In this document: piece by piece, positions 1 through 36,050 of the stretch
Numbering within the stretch: position 1 is the first letter of the stretch
How the letters are laid out: every line of letters begins with the position of its first letter
Source of the DNA: Rhynchocyon petersi
Lineage: Eukaryota
Direction of reading: 5' to 3'
NCBI GenBank assembly: GCA_043290085.1
Contig: CM091797.1
Location: 22,238,880-22,302,879 of the forward strand
DNA length: 64,000 bases
Made by a program: the position numbers and the translations under genes
The notes under the pieces: generated by a model
What the model was told of the DNA's origin: nothing
What the model saw: only the letters and a program-made list of their open reading frames with translations
The model's database searches: none

Positions 1-229
1 GAACAACAACAGCACAAACTTCAAACTCAGTAATGTCTTAAACTCAGCTCATTATGTATGGTCCTGTTTCCCCAACCACAAGCCTCCCTGAAACGTACTC
101 CTTGGCACTTGGAAATCCCCCTCATTTCTCAGATGGCAGCTCCATCCACCATCTCTCCCACAGTCAGACTTTGGATTCCTCCTGGGGGGCACAAAAGGAA
201 ACCGTTTCAACCTCAGGGCCATAGCGAAG

Positions 230-930
230 TGGCTCAAGGTCCAGTGACAGTCCCCACTAGGGGCGCGGGGCGCGCGCGGTCCGGGGGCGCGGCCTCGGAG
301 CGCGGGGCGCGGCCTCGGAGCGCGGGGCGCGGCCTCGGAGCGCGGGGCGCGGCCTCGGAGCGCGGGGCGCGGCCTCGGAGCGCGGGGCGCGGCCGGGCAG
401 GGTAGAGTTGCCGTAGAGCTCGGCAGAGTTGCGGCCAGGGCGGAGGTCCTGGAGCGGAGGCCCGGAGCGGAGAGGTCCGGAGCTTTGCTCTCAGCCAGGT
501 GCGTGGGGCCCGGGCCCCGGCCTTGCGTCTGGGTGGGACTCGGGCGCACTCTCCGCCCGCGCTGCTGGTAGGACGACACCTGTCTAGTTTCTCGGGTTGG
601 AAACAGCCCCGCCGTGCTTCCGTGTGGCGCGCTTCCTCCTGCCATTCCCTGTCCGCAGTTTGGGGGCCTGTAGGCGTCGCACCGAGCCGGGTGGCGAGTG
701 CGCAGCAAGCTCGGCTGCTCAGCTCGGGTCAGCTACTGGAAGCCACCAGCTGCTCCCGGGAGGGAGGTGGGCAGTTACATACAGATTTGCAGCCCCGGAA
801 ACCCACGGTGGCCTCTGGAACTTGGTGGGGTCGGTGTGGGGTTCCGCGACCTCCGGGAACTTGCACGGGCGGCCCGGGGACTTCCTCTTTAGAGAACTGG
901 CGCTGGTGTCAGCAGGATGAAATGCCTGCT
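230..930 (+). promoter_or_regulatory. PARP4: CpG island, the putative PARP4 promoter and non-coding first exon (exact TSS and donor not resolved). A candidate exon-1 donor 'cag|gtgcgt' lies near 497.
   Basis: Very high GC and CpG density (cgcg runs) that contrasts with AT-rich flanks. It lies ~8.6 kb upstream of the ATG-containing exon on the same strand. Human PARP4 likewise has a non-coding exon 1. Confidence 0.5.
281..400. repeat. 20-bp GC-rich tandem minisatellite (gcgcggggcgcggcctcggagc) x6 inside the CpG island
   Basis: Six perfect contiguous copies are visible directly. The ORF track shows the matching periodic peptides (…SERGARPRSAGRG… / …APRPRPALRGR…). Confidence 0.9.
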
Positions 931-1228
931 TTCTGAGCTAACTCTCTTCTGAGAGCTGGATTTGAAAGGAAACTTGTACAAGTGTGATGTTTTGATGAAT
1001 GATCAGGAGATGGCGTCGGACAATTGGCGAACAGTTGGGAAAACAGCAAGGAGGCCTTCTAGGTGCAGTCGAGATCCACAGTTGAAAAGCGTCTCTGCCA
1101 GGAACAGTGTGTGACTCACCTCTGGCTGGGACTCAACCCTGGGGCTGGACTTACCGGAAAAACTCAGCTTAGCCGGGTGTCAAGCCTAAGCACTGGACAG
1201 CAGAACCGCAATAAATACATTAAAACAG

Positions 1229-1700
1229 TCACAATGTGAGTGTATAAAGTCCTAGTGGTACAGTAGCTATCAAGGCACTGGCTGTTCTCCATAGTGGTTG
1301 TACCATCTTGCATTCCCACCAGCAGTGCAAGAGAGTTCCGACCTTTTCACACCCTCGCCAGCATCTATTGTTTGCTGTTGTGTTAAACTTTGCTATTGTT
1401 GCTGGGGTGAGGTGGTATCTCATTGTTGTTTTGATTTGTATCTCTCTGATTGCTAGTGATTTTGAGCACTTCCTCATGTGCTTGTTGGCCATTTGTATGT
1501 CCTCTTCAGTGAAATGCCTCTTCCTATCATTTGCCCACTTGGTTATTGGGTTAACTTCATTTTTCTTGTGTAGGTCCTGAAGTACTCTGTATATCCTTGT
1601 TATGAGTCCCCTGTCTGAGATATCATTGCCAAATATTTTCTCCCAGTCTGTGCATTCTCTCAAATACCATTTGACCCAGCTATTGCTCTCTGGGAATCTA
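1229..1700 (-). mobile_element. L1 (LINE-1) ORF2 C-terminal fragment, the inverted segment of a twin-primed insertion
   Basis: The minus-strand ORF has the L1 ORF2 C-terminal signature (…[30 protein letters not shown]…[25 protein letters not shown]…). Confidence 0.75.
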
Positions 1701-2236
1701 TCCTAAAGAAATTAGAGATGGAGTACAAAGAGATATCTGTACACCAATGTTCATCGCAGCACTATCCACAATAGCAAAGAATTGGAAGCAACCCAAATGC
1801 CCATCAACAAATGAATGGGTGGAGAAGTTGTGGTACATCCACACAATGGGATACTATGCAGCTTTAAAAAACAATGATCAATTCTTCAAATATTGTACAA
1901 CCTGGTCTAGGTTAGAGGATATTATGATAAGCAAGCTATCTCAGTCACACAAGGACAAGTACTGCATAGGTCCACTATTGTGAGACTGGGGAGATGGGAG
2001 ATGAAGGGGTTTAGGAAGGGGGATCAATTTTTTGGTTTTTTTGTTTGTGTTTTTGTTTGTTTATTTGCCTTTGCTTTTTTATGATGATATGCTTGTTTGG
2101 TATTTGGGTGGTTTGATTTATTTGTTGCTGTATGTTTATTTTTATTCTGTTGTTTTTGAGGGTATGGGGTTTGTTTTGTTTGGGGGGAGGAGAGGGTGTT
2201 TAAAAAAATTAAAATAAAAACAACTTAAAAAAAAAA
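1700..2236 (+). mobile_element. L1 3' end (ORF2 extreme C-terminus plus 3'UTR) with an A-rich tail
   Basis: The plus-strand ORF (…NEWVEKLWYIHTMGYYAALKNND…) is the L1 ORF2 end. It is followed by T/G-rich 3'UTR and poly-A at ~2196-2236. Confidence 0.7.
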
Positions 2237-2526: not shown

Positions 2527-2735
2527 CCCTGAGCAGCTGGCATGGCCTAGTGGTAAGAAGCTGCGCTGCCAACACAGACACAAGCGGGTCAAATCCGACA
2601 GCCACTGCACGGGAGAAAGAGTGGCATCAACTCCCGTGTGCTATACTGCCGTGTGCTATACTGGAAACCCACAGGAGGGTCACTATGAGTCGATTACAAC
2701 TGGACGGTACCCCATCATCATCATTGGTGGGGTAC
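2527..2735 (+). mobile_element. tRNA-derived SINE with an RTE-type tail (AfroSINE-like), full length
   Basis: tRNA-like head 'ggcctagtggtaag..gctgcgctgccaac…' and tail '…gggtcactatgagtcgattacaactggacggtacc'. Confidence 0.8.
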
Positions 2736-6654: not shown

Positions 6655-9430
6655 TGTTGTTGTTGTTATATGCCATCGAGTCGAGGACGACTCATAGTGA
6701 CCCTATGAACCACAGACCTAAAATGTCCTCTATCCTGTGCCATCCTCACTAACCCTGACACACTGGCACCCATCGCTGCAGTAACTGTGTCCAACCATCT
6801 TGTTGGGGGTCTGCACCTCCTTCTTTTACCCTCCCCCTTCCCAAACATAATGTCTTTCTCCAGGGACCTGTCCCTCCTAGCAACATGTCCGAAATATGCG
6901 AGGTGGAGCTTTGTCACCCTTGCCTCCAAGGAGAACTCTGGTTGGACCCTCTCCAGAAAATATCTGTTTGTCTTCCTGGCCATCCATGGAATATTGAGCA
7001 CTCTTCTCCAACACCACGGCTCAAAGGCATCAACTCTTCTATCTTCCCTAGTCATTGTCCAACTTTCAGATGCATGCGTGATGATCGAGAAGACCGTAGT
7101 TTGAATCAGATGCACCTTTGTCCTTAGACTTACATCATTATTCTTCAGAACCTTGGCATGGTCTCTAACCATGATCTTTCCCAATGTGATACGTCTTTTG
7201 ATCTCCTGGCTGCTGCCGCCAAGGGTATTGACTGTGGATCCAAGCAGTATAAAATCACTGACAGTTTCGATTTTCTCTCCATCAATCATGATATCCCCTA
7301 TTGGCCATATGGTAAGGATCTTGGTCTTCTTGCGGTTCAGCTGTAATCCGTATTTCAGACTGCATTCCTTGAGTTTCTGCAGCACAGCCTTCAAGTCTTC
7401 CTCACTTTCAACAAGCAATGTTGTATCATCTGCATATCGCAAGTTATTGATGCACCTTCCTCCAATTCTGATGCCACGTTCTTCCTCATAGAGTTCTGCT
7501 TCCCAAATAATCTGTTCCGCATAAAGATTGAATAGATAGGGGGAGAGGACGCAGCCCTGCCACACACCTTTTCTGACCTTGAACCATGCAGTGTTCCCAT
7601 GCTCTGTTCTTACCACAGCTTCTTGGTCTAGGTACAAATTTCTCATAAGCACGATCAAGTGTTCTGGGATTCCCATCTTCCTCAAGGTTAGCCACAGTTT
7701 GTTGTGATCCACACAATCAAATGCCTTTGCATAATCTATGAAGCACAGATATACATTCTTCTGTTATTCTTTGCTTTGAACCAGGATCCATCTGACATCT
7801 GCAATGATGTCTCTAGTGCCCCGGCCCCTTCTGAACCCAGCCTGGCTTTCTGGAAGTTTTCTCTCAATGTGTTGCTCCAGTTGTTTTTGGATAACCCTCA
7901 AAATAACTTTGTTTGCATGTGATATCAGTGATATAGTTCAGTAATTTCCACATTCTTTTGGATCGCCTCTTTTAGGGATTGGGACAAATATGGATCTTTT
8001 CCAATCAGTTGGCCAGGTGGTTGTCCTCCAAATTTCTTGGCACAGCGTGGTGAGCACATTTAGGGCTGCATCTGTTTGTTGAACTAGGTCTGTAGCTATG
8101 CCATCAATTCCAGGTGTCTTGTTTTTAGCTAATGTCCTCAGCACTGCTTCCACTTCCTCCCTCGTTACTGTTGGTTCTTGCTCATAGTCTACTTCCTGAA
8201 ATACTTCCATGTCATTCAGATCAGTACAGTGAATCTGTGTATGCCTTCCATCTTCTTTTGATGCTCCTTGGGTCATTCAATATCTTGCCAGAAATGTCTT
8301 TCAGTAGTGTTACTCGATTCTTGAACTTGTTCTTCAGCTCCTTCAACTTGAGAAATACTGAACAGGTTTGTCGCGACCACGAGGTTTTTCCTTGGACAAA
8401 ATCAGCACACCGACCTCCAGAAAGGTGTAGGCGAAAAGGGCAGGAATTTCCGGCCCTGCCGTTTTTATTCGTTTTGGGGGGGAGTGGTTTAGTGACGTCT
8501 TTTAATCATAAACAAGAGTGACTACTTCCTGTAACTCTCTCCAGAGTCTGCTCTACACACCGGAAAAACTCTGTGGTAAGACATAGTCGGCCAACTCATT
8601 AACTCTTTACAGGCTGGTATTACAAACAGAGCGTCATTAAATCTTATACCAGGAATCCTCAATATTTCTCAACTACTGCAAGGTTCTTCCATTTTTATTT
8701 TCCAGCTCCATTTCTTTGCACATTTCATTGTAGTACCTTGCCTTGTCTTCACGAGCGGCCCTTGGAAACTTTCCATTCAGAGCTCTTACATCCTCTTGTC
8801 TTCCCCTTGCTTTGGCTTCTTGTCACTCTATTGCAATCTTCAGAGTTTCTGCTGACATCCACTTAGGTCTCCTTTTCCATCGTTGTCTTTGTAAAGATCT
8901 TTTGCTTTCTTCATGAATGATATTCTTTATGACTTCCCACACCTCCTCTGGTCTTCGTTCAGTAGTGTTCAGTGCCTCAAACCTATTTCTGAGGTGGTCT
9001 TTGAATTCTGGTGAGGTAGCCTGAAGGTCATATTTTGGCTGTTATGGAACAATTTTGGTTTTCTTTGGCTTTAGCTTGAATTTGCAGAGAAGAAGTTGAT
9101 GATCTGTTCCACAGTCAGCTTCTGGCCTGGTCTTGACTGCTGCTATTGAGCTTCTCCACCTGTGCCTTCCACAGATATAGTCAATTTGGTTCCTGTGCTT
9201 TCCAAGTGTATAATCTCCGTTTGTGTCTTTTGAAGAAGGTGTTTGCAATGAATAAATAATTTATTGTGCAGAATTCGACCATTCTATCTCCAGCTTCATT
9301 TCTGTCACCAAGCCCATACTTTCCAACTACCATTCCTTCCTCTTTGTTTCCAACTTTTGCATTCCAGTCACCAATTATGAGCAGTGCATCCTGATTGCAA
9401 GTTTGGTCAACTTCAGCCTGTATATACTGG
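6655..9430 (-). mobile_element. Near full-length RTE (BovB-like) retrotransposon, ~2.8 kb, with EN, RT and 3' tail. It carries an intact 348-aa RT ORF.
   Basis: The minus-strand ORF 6666-7712 has the full RT motif set (…YADDTTLL…, …QGCVLSPYLFNLYAEQ…). Upstream ORFs 7938-8276 and 9042-9248 continue the same element. The reverse complement of ~9250-9400 encodes EN motifs (…LIIGDWNAKVG…). The 3' end carries the RTE tail and (caa)n at ~6655-6700. Confidence 0.85.
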
Positions 9431-12572: not shown

Positions 12573-12774
12573 TGTACACACGTTGTCTTAGACAATGCGG
12601 GTGTTCTGAGTCAGTATCAAATGAAGTCTATCCAAGAGAAACATATCCCTATTGTAAGCCCAGATTTTATATGGGACTCTGTCAAGGAAAGAAGACTTTT
12701 GGATGCAGAGCATTACAGTCCTAAAAAGTCACTGGATCTCACAACACTGTCTGGTCAAAAGGAAAGCTGTTCTG
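12573..12774 (+). CDS. PARP4: PARP4 exon (BRCT domain): CTHVVLDNAGVLSQYQMKSIQEKHIPIVSPDFIWDSVKERRLLDAEHYSPKKSLDLTTLSGQKESCS, ending in phase 1
   Basis: Acceptor 'ctcatttgcag|tgt' and donor 'ctg|gtaagt'. Continuous with the previous exon in phase 0 and collinear with human PARP4 residues ~45-111. Confidence 0.85.
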
Positions 12775-12780
12775 GTAAGT

Positions 12781-12840
12781 GGTGGTGGTGGTGTGTACCG
12801 TCGAGTCGTGAACGACGCATAGTGACCCTCCCGAGGGTTT
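12781..12840 (-). mobile_element. Truncated SINE 3'-tail fragment ((tgg)n plus 'gtaccgtcgagtcgtgaacgacgcatagtgaccctcccgagggttt') inserted at the exon donor site and flanked by a 9-bp direct repeat 'gtaagtggt'
   Basis: The sequence matches the minus-orientation tail of full SINE copies, for example the one at 32276-32340. 'gtaagtggt' appears at 12775-12783 and again at 12842-12850. Confidence 0.75.
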
Positions 12841-13510
12841 CGTAAGTGGTAGTTTCCTATAAACAGTTAATTTATCACGAGTGACCTGTGGGAAAATCAA
12901 ACTTGACCTCTCACACCAAATTGTAAGCATCAGTTCAACTTTGTGTCCCTTCTGTTCTGATTGCTGCTACACAATCACGTCTTCTTCCTCTGACTTTAAC
13001 CACCTGGGCTGGGTCACACCTCGCAAGTTGTAGAGCACAGTCCTCCAGGTCAGTCCAAGACCCAGGAAGTCAAGTGTCTCTGAGGCCTCCAGACCACACC
13101 TAAGGATCTATGATTCATGTTGGGTGGGGCCTGACTATGCCAAAAAGACTTACTGTGTGACATCAATCTCATGATGTCAACTGACTTCAGGACATGGGCT
13201 GGAATTTCTGTTACTTTGAGATTATTGATAAATGGTTGGGACCCATAATTCCAAGAGCTTTGTGGCTGCACATGGGCTCTTGGGAAGCATGCCCCTTCCC
13301 TTTCACCCTCTGTGTTTCTTTACGTGTGTGCTTTTTACTGTAACAAACCTGTAGCTTTAACAAACCTGTAACTTTCCCAAGTTCTTCTGTGAATCATTCT
13401 TAGCAAATTACAGAAACCAAGGAAGTAGTAGGAGCCAGAAGGTCAGAGGTCAGGAGTAGTATGTCCGGGGACCCTTCAGGTATAGTAAAAAAATCCTGAA
13501 TTTGTAGTTA

Positions 13511-15023: not shown

Positions 15024-15185
15024 TATGGCCTAGTGGTGAAAGAGCTGCGCTGCAAGCCCAAAGGCACGTGGTTCAAACCTGCCAGCTGCCCCGTGGGAGA
15101 AAGAGTGGTTTCTACTTCCGTGTGAGATACCGCCTCCGGAAACCCTCGGGAGGGTCACTATGAGTCGTTAACGACTCGATGGTAC
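15024..15185 (+). mobile_element. tRNA-derived SINE, plus orientation. It forms an inverted pair with the preceding copy, ~38 bp apart.
   Basis: 'gcagctggtatggcctagtggtgaaagagctgcgctgcaagcccaaaggcacgtggttcaaacctgcc…gggtcactatgagtcgttaacgactcgatggtacacc'. Confidence 0.85.
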
Positions 15186-15230
15186 ACCACACACACACAC
15201 ACTATGAGTCGTTCACGACTCGATGGTACA

Positions 15231-15274
<44 letters not shown>

Positions 15275-16395: not shown

Positions 16396-16459
16396 AAGTG
16401 GAGACAGATGAGCTACCCCTGGACAATGCCACAGAGGAGAACACTGTGGAATTCACTAA
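16396..16459 (+). CDS. PARP4: PARP4 exon: (E)VETDELPLDNATEENTVEFT, phase 1 start and phase 2 end
   Basis: Acceptor 'ttccttctag|aag' and donor 'cactaa|gtaatc'. Phase is consistent with the neighbouring exons. Corresponds to human …EVKTEGLCPDSATEEEDTVELTEF…. Confidence 0.7.
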
Positions 16460-16977
16460 GTAATCTATTTCTGATTGTTACGCAGAGTTTGCAAATTTGT
16501 TCAAAACCTCAAGCATGGTATTAAATAGTCTGTCCATCATAGGCTTTTTCCCCCAGAGTTTTAATTTTTTCTAAGTGTTATGTAATGAGATATTGAATTT
16601 TGTCTCATTCTCTTTCCTGGTGCTTTTATTTCTTTTGCTTATCTAATTCTTTATGAAAATTTTAAAGACCTTTTACTTCAATGATTAAGTCCATTAAATG
16701 GTAATTTCATTATTATTAAATCTGGCTTGGAGGAAGTGCAACCAGAGTGCTCCTTAGAGACAAGGATGGTGAGACATCATCTCACATACCTTGAGCATAT
16801 TATCAGGAGGCACCAGGCCTTGGGAAAAGACATCATGCTTGGAAAGGTCAAGTGTCAGTAAGAGATAGGAGGACCAACAGGATAGATTGACACCGTGACT
16901 GCCACAATGGGCTAGTTCATGACAGGGATGGTGGGGACAGGGTAAGGTTTCAACCAAAGGTTAATAGGATCTCTGGG

Positions 16978-21891: not shown

Positions 21892-21958
21892 GTTTTATAC
21901 CGAAAATGTTGAAATTCCTCAAGAATTTGAAGTTGCAAAATATAACACCCTGGAAAAA
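21892..21958 (+). CDS. PARP4: PARP4 exon: (K)FYTENVEIPQEFEVAKYNTLEK, phase 2 start and phase 0 end
   Basis: Acceptor 'ttaaatttcag|gtt' and donor 'gaaaaa|gtaagt'. Matches human …VEIPHLPQDFEVAKYNTLEK…. Confidence 0.8.
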
Positions 21959-26349: not shown

Positions 26350-26690
26350 TTGATGATGATGAGGGTGCCGTTGAGTCATGACCGACTCATAGTGACCCTC
26401 ATGGCCTAGTGGTGAAGGAGCTTCGCTGCCAACTCAAAGGCACATGGTTCATATACACCAGCTGCTCCATGGGAGAAAGAGTGGCTTCCACTCCCGTGTG
26501 AGATACTGCCTCCGGAAACCCTTGGGAGGGTCACTAGGAGTCGTTCACGACTCGACGGTACCCGCCCCCCCATCATATCACACAGGAGTTGCTTCACTCT
26601 TTCTCCAGTGGAGCAGCTGGAAGATTTGAACCTTGTGCCTTTGAGTTGACAGCGCAGCTCCTTATGACTAGGGTACACTAGCTGCTCCTC
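26350..26690. mobile_element. Nested SINE cluster: a minus-orientation SINE (26350-26400 tail; 26575-26690 head) split by a plus-orientation full SINE (26400-26575)
   Basis: The minus tail '(gat)n gagggtgccgttgagtcatgaccgactcatagtgaccctc' is immediately followed by the plus head 'atggcctagtggtgaaggagcttcgctgcc…'. After the plus tail '…cgactcgacggtacccgcccccc' the minus body resumes '…cacaggagttgcttcactctttctccagtggagcagctgg…'. Confidence 0.7.
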
Positions 26691-34333: not shown

Positions 34334-35867
34334 TCTGTTCATAGACATTTAAATTGGCTCCACCTTTTTTTCTACACTGAAAAGTGCTGCAGTGAACGTT
34401 GGTGCACAGATTTGTTTGAGCACCTGCTTGGCTTCTTGTGAAAATGTGCCTAGATCAGGGTGTAAGTCATATGGTAGTTCTGTGTTCAGCCTTTGAGGAA
34501 CTGCTAACCTGTTTCCCACTGTGGCTTTGCAGATTTACATCCCCACTAGCAATGGCTAAAGAGTTCCAGGTTCTCCATAACCTTACCAACAAACTGTTTC
34601 CTAATTTTGAGGTTATTCAAATTTATGGATTTTAAAAAAGACTTAAGTATCACTCTCTGCCTCTTCACTGGAGCATTTTCCATCTATATTCAGAGTAACT
34701 AGCAATAAGGAAGACTTCTTCCATTTTGTTACTAATTTTTTTTGTCTTAGAGCCTCTTTAGGGAGCTCTGGTGACATAGTCCATAGGGAGTTCCTCTGAT
34801 AACCCAAAGGTTGTGCTTCTCCGCTGGTGAATCCACCAGCAGCTCCACGGCAGAAAGAAGGACGGCCGGCCTCCTCCCGATACTCTTCACAGCCTTGGGA
34901 GCCTGCTGGAGTGTTGCTGAGCTGAAACAGACTTGACACCAGTGAGCAAATGAACATAGCTTCTTTGGCTCTCTGTTCCTTTGGTGCTGACGTTTGTGTG
35001 TCTTTTTTCTCCTCTCGACTGACTTCTCGTTTTTATTTCTTACTCCTTATATTTGTGTGAGATACTGCTTCCGGCAACCCTCGGGAGGGTCACGATGAGT
35101 CATTCACGACTCGACGGTACCTCACCACCACCACCACCATTCCTTATATTTAATACCTTATTTTTTAAACAGTCTGATTTATATTTATACTTGCTTAACT
35201 TTAGTAACAGACAAAAACTATGCCTGCCCTGATCTTCCTGCACCACCATTGATATTGTTGCTATCCCCAATTGCATCTTCTTAACTTGACTACCCTTTTA
35301 TTTTGGGAGCTCTGGTGGCCTAGTGGTAAGTCATACCTAGTGGTATGACTTACACCCTGATCTAGGCACATTTTCACAAGAAGCCAAGCAGGTGCTCAAA
35401 CAAATCTGTGCACCAACGTTCACTGCAGCACTTTTCAGTGTAGAAAAAAAGGTGGAGCCAATTTAAATGTCTATGAACAGATGAGCAGCTGGAGTGGCCT
35501 AGTGGTAAGGAACTGTGCTGCCAATACAAAGGCAGGTAGTTCAAATCTACCAGTTGCTCCGAGGGAGAAAGACAGTCTGCCACCATGCGATTTATAGCCT
35601 TTGAAAACCCACCGGAGGGTAAGCTATGAGCTGGCTCAGACTCAACGGCATATCACAACTCTGTAATTTAAAATTACATATATATGCTGTATCATTTTCA
35701 TGTGTGTGGGAGTTTCTATGCCTCTGGCACTAGAAAGCACAAGGGACACATCATTTTTTATCTGTCAACCAAAAGTATTTTAATTCTATCTTTATACTTG
35801 TCAGGAAATTCCTTTAAAGTGAAACTACCGCCACCCCCTGCCCTGTACTCACGGTGTTAATTTGTTG

Positions 35868-36050
35868 CATGGTGGTGGGGTACCGTCGAGTCGTGAATGA
35901 CTCATAGTGACCCTCCCGAGGGTTTCCGGAGGCAGTATCTCACACGGAAGTAGAAACCACTCTTTTTCCCGCGGAGCAGCTGGCAGTTTTGAACCGCATG
36001 CCTTAGGGCTTGCAGCGCAGCTCTTTCACCACTAGGCCATACCAGCTGCA
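35868..36050 (-). mobile_element. tRNA-derived SINE
   Basis: 'ggtggtggggtaccgtcgagtcgtgaatgactcatagtgaccctcccgagggtttccgg…ccactaggccataccagctgc'. Confidence 0.85.

What the first reader, a model, noticed from the sequence alone, without database searches (positions are those of the whole stretch)
12771..12850. SINE-tail insertion exactly at the exon-3 splice donor, duplicating the 'gtaagtggt' donor sequence
The PARP4 BRCT exon ends 'tctg|gtaagtggt'. A ~58-bp fragment of SINE 3' tail follows immediately: (tgg)n then 'gtaccgtcgagtcgtgaacgacgcatagtgaccctcccgagggttt'. After it comes a second 'gtaagtggt'. The 9-bp direct repeat looks like a target-site duplication. The retroelement therefore landed on the 5' splice site and rebuilt a consensus donor at its own upstream edge, leaving a second, equally strong cryptic donor 67 nt downstream. 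Using the downstream copy would add 67 nt, which is not a multiple of 3, and read-through hits TAA in-frame. The gene must rely on the first copy. This is a natural experiment in donor choice and a plausible site of lineage-specific aberrant or NMD isoforms.
Basis: seen in the sequence. Interest (0 to 1): 0.6.

Follow-up and report, generated by a model that had tools for sequence, protein, structure and literature searches.

The report
SINE insertion duplicating a splice donor
A short, young fragment of a mobile element sits nine bases into a PARP4 intron and copied those nine bases as such insertions normally do, leaving a weaker, out-of-frame spare splice signal 67 bases downstream: real, neat, but an ordinary kind of event.

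Summary
A 202-nt PARP4 BRCT exon (12573-12774) ends ...TCTG|GTAAGTGGT. A second GTAAGTGGT lies 67 nt downstream (12842-12850). The 58 nt between them are an 11-nt (TGG)n-type run plus 47 nt that match the last 47 nt of a 170-nt SINE (46/47). That SINE gives 49 hits in the window.

The fragment is antisense to PARP4, 5'-truncated and young: all 5 CpGs are kept. The SINE shares its last ~34 nt with an RT-encoding RTE/BovB-type LINE in the same window. Its other copies carry 10-12-bp target-site duplications. The 9-bp repeat is therefore best read as a target-site duplication spanning intron positions +1 to +9. Four of its bases (TGGT) cannot be told apart from the tail.

The upstream donor is the ancestral one, preserved rather than rebuilt. 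Two distant outgroup loci end the exon at the same TCTG|GT with a single donor.

The downstream copy is not equally strong: TTC versus CTG at -3..-1, and U1 duplex -6.8 versus -10.2 kcal/mol. It is still within the range of working PARP4 donors. Using it gives a stop codon five codons into the next exon.

No afrotherian orthologue or RNA data could be reached, so the age of the insertion and any decoy use remain untested. It is a new example of a known kind, of low to moderate interest.

The parts
12573..12774 (+). PARP4 coding exon (BRCT domain), 202 nt, entering in phase 0 and leaving in phase 1
   Evidence: Acceptor tttgcag|TGT and donor TCTG|GTAAGT are read. Spliced translation continues in frame into the next exon. 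Pfam BRCT is precomputed for the homologues P0001-P0006.
12775..12783 (+). Authentic 5' splice site (intron +1..+9) and upstream copy of the target-site duplication, GTAAGTGGT
   Evidence: Adjacent to the conserved exon end. Octodon degus has tattctg|gtacgt and an unnamed mammal has aggtctg|gtgagtg. It matches 8/9 consensus positions with a U1 duplex of -10.2 kcal/mol. TGGT (12780-12783) is also in register with the tail repeat.
12784..12794 (-). SINE microsatellite tail: ACACCACCACC on the SINE strand, read as GGTGGTGGTGT on the + strand
   Evidence: Other copies of the family end GGTAC + (C)CCACCACCACCA or ACCACCACCA.
12795..12841 (-). 5'-truncated SINE body, consensus positions 124-170 of 170. 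It includes the ~34-nt domain shared with the partner LINE.
   Evidence: blastn to the window-derived consensus gives 97.9% over 47 nt. It has 1 mismatch and keeps 5/5 CpGs. Aligned with LINE 3' ends.
12842..12850 (+). Downstream copy of the target-site duplication and decoy 5' splice site, TTC|GTAAGTGGT
   Evidence: It matches 6/9 consensus positions with a U1 duplex of -6.8 kcal/mol. Its use adds 67 nt and gives ...PRVSSGDR* in the next exon. SINE similarity stops at 12841.
12843..12845 (+). In-frame TAA reached if the intron is retained
   Evidence: Translation.
16396..16459 (+). Next PARP4 exon (64 nt), EVETDELPLDNATEENTVEFT
   Evidence: tblastn with exon peptides of four species. Acceptor ttctag|AAGTGG and donor ACTAA|GTAATC are read. 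It is in frame only with the donor at 12775.
21892..21958 (+). Following PARP4 exon (67 nt), FYTENVEIPQEFEVAKYNTLEK
   Evidence: It is in frame with the decoy donor only if the 64-nt exon is skipped (+67-64 = +3).
6666..7712 (-). RTE/BovB-type LINE fragment (RT domain). Its 3' end (6673-6704) carries the same terminal domain as the SINE but a (CAA)n tail. It is the likely class of enzyme donor.
   Evidence: Pfam RVT_1, E=3e-20. The best named relatives are from Elephas maximus at 63-71% identity, then Bos and Anolis at about 50%. 3'-end alignment.
35055..35120 (+). Reference case: another 5'-truncated copy of the same SINE (consensus 105-170), with an 11-bp target-site duplication TCCTTATATTT
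35880..36049 (-). Reference case: a young full-length copy of the same SINE (97% identical to the consensus)

Best explanation
A 5'-truncated copy of a lineage-specific, AfroSINE-like SINE inserted in antisense orientation into the PARP4 intron, between positions +9 and +10. The copy comprises the last 47 nt of the SINE plus an 11-nt (ACC)n-type tail. The enzymes most likely came from an RTE/BovB-clade LINE.

Inferred mechanism (target-primed reverse transcription):
1. The + strand was nicked after ...GTAAGTGGT.
2. Its 3' end TGGT paired with the ...ACCA tail of the SINE RNA and primed cDNA synthesis.
3. The other strand was cut 9 nt away, exactly at the exon-intron junction.
4. Fill-in duplicated intron positions +1..+9.

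Consequences:
- The authentic donor next to the exon is unchanged from -3 to +9 and remains the productive site.
- A decoy with the same intron side but a non-consensus exon side (TTC) now lies 67 nt downstream.
- Using the decoy shifts the frame and gives a premature stop in the next exon, so such transcripts should be degraded by nonsense-mediated decay.

The insertion is therefore a tolerated, probably neutral or slightly deleterious, recent event with no function of its own.

What is shown: the element's identity, orientation, truncation, tail, flanking repeat, frames and relative U1 complementarity. What is inferred: the order of nicks, the LINE partner's role, predominance of the upstream donor, and neutrality.
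For: - Sequence and coordinates.
- Family: 49 hits to a 170-nt consensus. The insert is positions 124-170, on the minus strand, at 97.9% identity.
- Tail: other copies carry the same (CCA)n tail directly after GGTAC.
- Duplications: other copies have abutting duplications of 10-12 bp. One is another 5'-truncated copy at 35055-35120. Published RTE-type duplications are mostly 7-15 bp, and tails are proposed to pair with the target (PMC6007223).
- LINE partner: the SINE's last ~34 nt align with the 3' ends of three copies of an RT-encoding LINE in the window. The nearest named relatives of that LINE are elephant RTE copies.
- Exon end: it is conserved and single-donor in two outgroup genomic loci.
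- Frames: donor 1 gives ...ESCS|EVETDELPL... in frame. Donor 2 gives a stop after 5 codons of the next exon. Intron retention stops at TAA 12843-45.
- Strength: U1 duplex -10.2 versus -6.8 kcal/mol, and 8/9 versus 6/9 consensus matches.
- Youth: 1/47 mismatches and 5/5 CpGs kept. Only 2 of 31 copies keep all five CpGs.
Against: - No orthologous empty site from a close relative could be obtained. The pre-insertion sequence tctg|gtaagtggtagtttcc is reconstructed, not observed.
- The TGGT of the upstream repeat could be tail rather than duplicated target, so the duplication may be as short as 5 bp.
- In vitro and HeLa-cell work shows that when two strong 5' splice sites lie 45 nt or more apart, the intron-proximal (downstream) one is used almost exclusively (PMC3413131).
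- The decoy has a perfect intron side (GTAAGT). It is as good as or better than two working PARP4 donors nearby: TAA|GTAATC at -4.0 and AAA|GTAAGT at -7.5 kcal/mol. Predominance of the upstream donor is therefore not guaranteed.
- No RNA data were available.
- The tRNA-like head of the SINE was not recognised by ARAGORN or Rfam.
Confidence: 0.8

Rival explanations
1. The decoy donor is used to a substantial extent. The insertion would then lower PARP4 output through frameshifted transcripts that are degraded by nonsense-mediated decay. Together with skipping of the 64-nt next exon, it could instead yield an in-frame isoform in which 22-23 SINE-derived residues (GKWWWWCVPSSRERRIVTLPRVS) replace the acidic linker exon.
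For: - The decoy keeps GTAAGT at +1..+6. This makes it a 'right-handed' type of 5' splice site, a class described in PMC11842720.
- Its U1 duplex (-6.8 kcal/mol) lies within the range of working PARP4 donors in the window, -4.0 to -10.7.
- Duplicated strong sites 45 nt or more apart splice almost wholly from the intron-proximal copy (PMC3413131). Here the spacing is 67 nt.
- +67 nt minus the 64-nt exon equals +3, and the extension contains no stop.
Against: - The decoy lacks G at -1 and any exon-side match, and is 3.4 kcal/mol weaker than the authentic site.
- The cited experiments used equal sites.
- All 13 PARP4 exons found in the window are open, although a young insertion would not yet have allowed decay.
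- The in-frame combination has a 1-in-3 prior and needs an extra skipping event.
- There are no RNA data either way.
Confidence: 0.15
2. The true target-site duplication is only GTAAG (5 bp), or there is none. The 9-nt identity would then arise because the SINE's (TGG)n tail happens to continue like the original intron (TGGT).
For: Read from 12780, the upstream copy runs tgg tgg tgg tgg tgt, a perfect continuation of the tail repeat. Most other copies start their tail as A|TGGTGG.
Against: - In the downstream copy TGGT is followed by AGTTTCC and is not part of any repeat, so the ancestral intron did read GTAAGTGGT.
- Tail-to-target pairing at the nick is the proposed priming mode for this class of element (PMC6007223), and under that model the two readings are the same event.
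- Family duplications are 10-12 bp, so 9 is more typical than 5.
- Either way the donor core is duplicated.
Confidence: 0.25
3. The feature is not a retroposition. It is either a local 67-bp tandem duplication, or a chance repeat next to old SINE-like sequence, or an assembly artefact or rare allele of the sequenced individual.
For: The insertion is seen in one assembly only. Exact look-ups of the read-through ORF in public assemblies found nothing.
Against: - The sequence between the repeats is 46/47 identical to the SINE consensus and carries the family's tail at the correct end. A tandem duplication would instead repeat local intron or exon sequence.
- A 9-mer match at fixed flanks has a chance of about 4e-6 per register.
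- Similarity to the SINE drops abruptly from 46/47 to about random after 12841.
- An artefact cannot be excluded, but nothing suggests one.
Confidence: 0.04

Closest known systems
Canine merle allele: antisense SINEC_Cf insertion at the intron 10/exon 11 boundary of PMEL, with a 15-bp target-site duplication containing the original splice acceptor (PMC7349775)
   Same: An antisense SINE landed on a splice signal. The target-site duplication leaves one intact copy of the signal next to the exon. The insertion sets up competition between the authentic site and another site, with frame consequences.
   Different: - Merle affects the 3' splice site and here it is the 5' splice site.
- The merle element is full length with a long oligo(dT) tract that displaces the branch point and activates a cryptic acceptor inside the SINE. 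Here the element is a 58-nt stub, and the competitor is the duplicated target itself.
- Merle has a proven phenotype. Nothing is known here.
AfroSINE / RTE1 retroposition in afrotherian genomes (Nikaido 2003, Gogolevsky 2008 and Gilbert 2008, as summarised in PMC6007223)
   Same: - The SINE shares its 3' terminal domain with an RTE-clade LINE.
- The tail is microsatellite-like rather than poly(A).
- SINE and LINE carry different tail repeats.
- Target-site duplications are short (7-15 bp).
- The first bases of the duplication match the tail repeat. Here that is ACCA versus (ACC)n on the SINE strand.
   Different: - The tail here is (CCA)n. The elephant families listed in that paper have (GGTTT)n, (GGTTTT)n or (CAA)n.
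- The match of this SINE to the published AfroSINE consensus rests on my memory of that consensus (GGGTCGCTATGAGTCGGAATCGACTCGACGGCA), not on a database test.
- The host species is unidentified.
Engineered pre-mRNAs with duplicated 5' splice sites (C174C, G176G and Ad1CC substrates; PMC3413131)
   Same: There are two copies of the same 5' splice-site core in tandem on one pre-mRNA. The 67-nt spacing falls in the range (45 nt or more) where position effects dominate.
   Different: - The engineered copies are identical on both the exon and intron sides. Here the exon sides differ (CTG versus TTC), and the productive site is the intron-distal one.
- The engineered substrates have short introns. 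Here the intron is 3.6 kb.
Disease-causing Alu, L1 or SINE insertions close to splice sites (general knowledge; reviews such as PMC6466679 are listed but were not read)
   Same: A retroelement lies within a few bases of a splice signal.
   Different: Those cases are recognised because they disrupt splicing. This one sits in an apparently intact gene and is probably tolerated.

Membership tests
RTE-mobilised SINE (AfroSINE-like) | The 3' terminal domain is shared with an RTE-clade LINE of the same genome | tested here: met
   The last ~34 nt of the SINE (AGGGTCACTATGAGTCGTTCACGACTCGACGGTAC) align with the 3' ends of three LINE copies (AGGGTCGCTATGAGTCGTCTTCGACTCGATGGCAC). The LINE ORF has RVT_1. 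Its nearest named relatives are elephant and bovine BovB/RTE copies.
RTE-mobilised SINE (AfroSINE-like) | The tail is microsatellite-like instead of poly(A) | tested here: met
   (CCA)n follows GGTAC in the young copies and in the finding.
RTE-mobilised SINE (AfroSINE-like) | Short target-site duplications, mostly 7-15 bp | tested here: met
   Duplications of 9, 10, 11 and 12 bp were found in four copies. The published range comes from PMC6007223. Several other copies had no clear duplication under the simple exact-match test.
RTE-mobilised SINE (AfroSINE-like) | The 5' head derives from tRNA and carries pol III A and B boxes | tested here: inconclusive
   ARAGORN finds no tRNA. Rfam gives no tRNA match at E<=1. 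Box A-like TGGCCTAGTGG and box B-like GGTTCAAACC are visible in the consensus. The finding itself lacks the head because it is 5'-truncated.
RTE-mobilised SINE (AfroSINE-like) | Sequence match to the curated AfroSINE consensus (Repbase/Dfam) | not testable with these tools
   No repeat library is available. The resemblance rests on memory only.
Target-site duplication of a retroposed element | Identical direct repeats abut the tail on one side and the (truncated) 5' end on the other | tested here: met
   GTAAGTGGT lies at 12775-12783 and 12842-12850, with zero offset at both ends. The flanking bases differ, so the repeat is exactly 9 nt. Four of the nine bases are ambiguous with the tail.
Target-site duplication of a retroposed element | The orthologous empty site holds a single copy of the repeat | tested here: inconclusive
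   Only distant outgroups could be reached. Octodon degus (L001) has tctg|gtacgtattc and an unnamed mammal (L002) has tctg|gtgagtgcgtcc. Each has one donor and no SINE. Their introns are too diverged to show the 9-mer itself. No afrotherian locus was obtainable.
Alternative (tandem) 5' splice sites in use | Both sites carry GT and are credibly complementary to U1 | tested here: met
   8/9 matches at -10.2 kcal/mol versus 6/9 at -6.8 kcal/mol. No other GT between or near them exceeds -6.7.
Alternative (tandem) 5' splice sites in use | Both sites give a productive reading frame | tested here: not met
   The decoy adds 67 nt and leads to a stop after 5 codons of the next exon. It is in frame only if the 64-nt exon is also skipped.
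Alternative (tandem) 5' splice sites in use | Transcripts from both sites are observed | not testable with these tools
   No transcript of this species was found. The best transcript-like hits are 72% identical or less.

The most novel reading that the evidence does not exclude
Because it is intron-proximal and has a perfect GTAAGT, the duplicated donor captures a sizeable share of PARP4 splicing in this lineage. A recent SINE stub would then have turned a constitutive exon into an alternative-donor exon. The result would be either a lower PARP4 dose through nonsense-mediated decay or, with skipping of the 64-nt next exon (+67-64 = +3 nt), an in-frame isoform carrying a 22-23-residue SINE-encoded, tryptophan-rich linker after the BRCT domain.
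Probability: 0.12. Interest if true: 0.4.

Novelty: new member of a known kind. Interest (0 to 1): 0.2.

Why it matters
- It is a clean natural example of how a target-site duplication can shield a splice site. The staggered cut began exactly at intron +1, so the exon kept an untouched donor while a decoy was created 67 nt further in.
- If RNA from this species becomes available, the locus is a ready-made in vivo test of strength versus proximity in 5' splice-site choice, with a built-in frameshift read-out.
- The insertion is a potential presence/absence marker for relationships among close relatives of the host.
- It is a trap for gene predictors, which could pick the wrong GTAAGT.
- It changes nothing fundamental about retroposition or splicing.

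Tried and rejected
1. Afrotherian orthologues.
- Two protein searches with PARP4 segments returned only proteins of about 600 aa or less, and no afrotherian PARP4.
- The third search, with the LINE RT, gave elephant RTE copies but no route to the PARP4 locus.
- Exact look-ups of the exon plus read-through ORF and of P0005 found nothing.
- A degenerate exon pattern scanned against metagenome contigs found nothing.
- Only two distant outgroup loci were recovered (L001 and L002).

2. tRNA origin of the SINE head. ARAGORN and Rfam were both negative, and the only Rfam hit (HOTTIP_2, E=0.97) is noise.

3. RNA structure that might hide one of the donors. The fold of 12745-12880 is no better than shuffles (z=+1.07), so it was dropped.

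4. The idea that the second GTAAGTGGT is a diverged continuation of the SINE (consensus CGGAGGCAGTA). By my own count against the consensus, identity falls from 46/47 before 12841 to at most about 7/14 after it, even allowing a 1-nt shift. Rejected.

5. A local tandem duplication. Rejected because the intervening sequence is SINE, not local sequence.

6. Prior description. A literature search for PARP4 plus Afrotheria returned no papers.

7. MaxEntScan-type scores could not be computed because no model tables were available. U1 duplex energies and consensus-match counts were used instead.

Full report
**1. Observation**

The sequence is as described. A PARP4 coding exon runs from 12573 to 12774 and ends ...tgttctg. 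GTAAGTGGT follows at 12775-12783 and again at 12842-12850, 67 nt later.

The bases next to the two 9-mers differ (g/c before, g/a after), so the repeat is exactly 9 nt. The 9-mer is expected 0.54 times in the window and occurs three times; two of these flank the insert.

The exon in question is the BRCT exon, CTHVVLDNAGVLSQYQ....

**2. What the 58 nt are**

- The 35-nt core of the insert recurs 10 times in the window at 3 or fewer mismatches, against 0 expected.
- Aligning those copies with flanks gives a 170-nt consensus element. blastn with the consensus finds 49 hits in 64 kb, at 66-98% identity and on both strands about equally.
- The insert matches consensus positions 124-170, the 3' end, at 46/47. 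It lies on the minus strand, so it is antisense to PARP4 and 5'-truncated.
- The 11 nt between the first 9-mer and the body (GGTGGTGGTGT) are the complement of the family's tail. Young copies end GGTAC + (C)CCACCACCACCA or ACCACCACCA.
- SINE similarity ends abruptly at 12841. It is 46/47 before that point and at most about 7/14 after it, even allowing a 1-nt shift, by my own count against the consensus.
- The head shows box A-like and box B-like motifs by eye, but ARAGORN and Rfam do not call it a tRNA.

**3. Which machinery**

Several blastn hits covered only the last ~35 nt of the SINE. Three of them (6673, 18226, 62991) share about 260 nt of further upstream similarity with each other.

The 6673 copy continues into a 348-aa ORF with a reverse-transcriptase domain (RVT_1, E=3e-20). 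The best named relatives of that ORF are Elephas maximus copies at 63-71% identity, followed by Bos and Anolis BovB/RTE-type copies at about 50%.

The LINE ends AGGGTCGCTATGAGTCGTCTTCGACTCGATGGCAC + (CAA)n. The SINE ends AGGGTCACTATGAGTCGTTCACGACTCGACGGTAC + (CCA)n.

A shared 3' domain, microsatellite tails, and different tails for the SINE and its LINE are exactly what is described for AfroSINEs and RTE1 (PMC6007223). The resemblance of the SINE to the published AfroSINE consensus is from my memory only. The species was not identified.

**4. The 9-bp repeat as a target-site duplication**

Other copies of the family carry abutting exact repeats:

| Copy | Repeat | Length |
|---|---|---|
| 32289 | ATGATACAATGT | 12 bp |
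| 35055 (another 5'-truncated copy, consensus 105-170) | TCCTTATATTT | 11 bp |
| 58971 | ATAATACAAT | 10 bp |

The published range for RTE-type elements is mostly 7-15 bp. In the finding the repeat has zero offset at both element ends.

On the SINE strand the structure is ACCACTTAC | GAAACCC...GGTAC | ACACCACCACC | ACCACTTAC. The duplication therefore begins with ACCA, in register with the (ACC)n tail.

The cited paper reports a correlation between the first bases of the duplication and the tail repeat. It relays the proposal (Gilbert 2008) that the tail pairs with the target at priming.

My inferred mechanism is as follows:
1. The + strand was nicked after GTAAGTGGT.
2. TGGT-3' primed on the ...ACCA tail of the SINE RNA.
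3. The opposite strand was cut 9 nt away, exactly at the exon-intron junction.
4. Fill-in duplicated intron +1..+9.

One caveat applies. The TGGT of the upstream copy cannot be distinguished from tail sequence, so the demonstrable duplication is 5-9 bp. The downstream TGGT is followed by AGTTTCC and is not repeat-derived, so the ancestral intron did read GTAAGTGGT. The donor core is duplicated under either reading.

**5. Which copy is the real donor**

Two outgroup genomic loci were reached:
- Octodon degus (L001) ends the orthologous exon ...agctattctg|gtacgtattc.
- An unnamed mammal from a Logan contig (L002) ends it ...aggtctg|gtgagtgcgtcc.

Each has a single donor and no SINE. The exon end TCTG|GT is therefore ancestral and coincides with the first copy. 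These outgroups are too distant to show the 9-mer itself.

The next exon is 16396-16459 (ttctag|AAGTGGAG...).

| Splicing outcome | Result |
|---|---|
| Splice from 12774 | ...QKESCS EVETDELPLDNATEENTVEFT K FYTENVEIP..., in frame |
| Splice from 12841 | adds 67 nt, gives ...PRVSSGDR*, a stop five codons into the next exon |
| Intron retention | stops at TAA 12843-45 |

The donor was not rebuilt; positions -3..+9 are simply untouched.

**6. Relative strength**

| Site | Sequence | Consensus matches | U1 duplex (kcal/mol) |
|---|---|---|---|
| Authentic donor (12775) | CTG\|GTAAGTGG | 8/9 | -10.2 |
| Decoy (12842) | TTC\|GTAAGTGG | 6/9 | -6.8 |
| PARP4 donor at 16459 | TAA\|GTAATC | 5/9 | -4.0 |
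| PARP4 donor at 21958 | AAA\|GTAAGT | 7/9 | -7.5 |

The two intron sides are identical. The exon sides differ because the duplication starts at +1. 'Equally strong' is therefore wrong.

The decoy is still not negligible. It is as good as or better than the two bona fide PARP4 donors listed above. It also belongs to the intron-side-weighted ('right-handed') class of functional sites (PMC11842720).

Experiments with duplicated strong sites show almost exclusive use of the intron-proximal copy once the spacing is 45 nt or more (PMC3413131). The same paper notes that the distal site is active when the proximal one is weak.

Which regime applies here cannot be decided without RNA data. I judge predominant use of the upstream site more likely because of G at -1 and 3.4 kcal/mol of extra pairing.

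No RNA structure stands out around the sites (z=+1.07).

A curiosity: decoy use combined with skipping of the 64-nt next exon is in frame (+3 nt). It would replace the acidic linker by GKWWWWCVPSSRERRIVTLPRVS. This has a 1-in-3 prior and no supporting evidence.

**7. Age**

Over the 47 nt the insert has one mismatch to the consensus and keeps all five CpGs. Only 2 of 31 copies covering this segment keep all five. It belongs to the youngest tier of the family. Forty-seven nucleotides are too few for a date.

**8. Comparison with what is known**

- The closest described case is the canine merle allele. There an antisense SINE sits at a PMEL splice acceptor, and a 15-bp duplication contains the original acceptor (PMC7349775).
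- The retroposition features match AfroSINE/RTE1 biology.
- The arrangement resembles engineered duplicated-donor substrates.
- No paper links PARP4 and Afrotheria.

This is a new instance of a known kind of event. It is not a new mechanism.

**9. Limits**

- No afrotherian orthologue, no second assembly and no transcript of the host could be reached.
- The empty site is therefore reconstructed rather than observed. The date, the fixation status and the use of the decoy are open.
- MaxEntScan and repeat libraries were not available.

**10. Verdict**

Interest is low to moderate. The locus is a tidy teaching example and a possible natural splice-site-choice experiment, not a surprise.

Noticed in passing
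window 6666-~9333 (- strand): A long RTE/BovB-type LINE fragment lies here, with a 348-aa ORF containing RVT_1 and further ORF pieces up to about 9333 that resemble endonuclease sequence by eye. It ends about 220 bp upstream of the PARP4 ATG exon (9554). Its nearest named relatives are Elephas maximus copies at 63-71% identity.
   Followed up: partly
whole window: The density of one SINE family is very high. There are 49 blastn hits in 64 kb at 66-98% identity, split about equally between strands relative to PARP4.
   Followed up: partly
window 15151-15255: Two partial SINE 3' ends lie in tandem (GTACCATCGAGTCGTGAACGACTCATAGTG...), separated and flanked by (TG)n. The second continues into a full-length copy. 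This looks like microsatellite-mediated partial duplication of the SINE end.
   Followed up: no
window 26365-26400 (-) and 2662-2731 (+): A related element end carries a (TCA)n tail (GGGTCACTATGAGTCGGTCATGACTCAACGGCACCCTCATCATCATCA). This suggests a second SINE subfamily that shares the same LINE-derived 3' domain.
   Followed up: no
window 12841 / 16396-16459 / 21892: Frame arithmetic: the decoy donor (+67 nt) together with skipping of the 64-nt next exon restores the reading frame (+3 nt). It gives ...ESCS-GKWWWWCVPSSRERRIVTLPRVS-FYTENVEIP....
   Followed up: yes
window 16454-16467: The donor of the 64-nt PARP4 exon is weak: TAA|GTAATC, 5/9 consensus matches, U1 duplex -4.0 kcal/mol. That exon may be prone to skipping.
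   Followed up: no
window 1-2000: This is the highest G+C in the window (0.54, against about 0.42 elsewhere). This was not examined.
   Followed up: no
protein database behaviour: No hit longer than 601 aa was returned in any of the three searches, and no full-length (~1700 aa) PARP4 from any species appeared. Long proteins seem to be unreachable through that tool, and this is what blocked the orthologue comparison.
   Followed up: no
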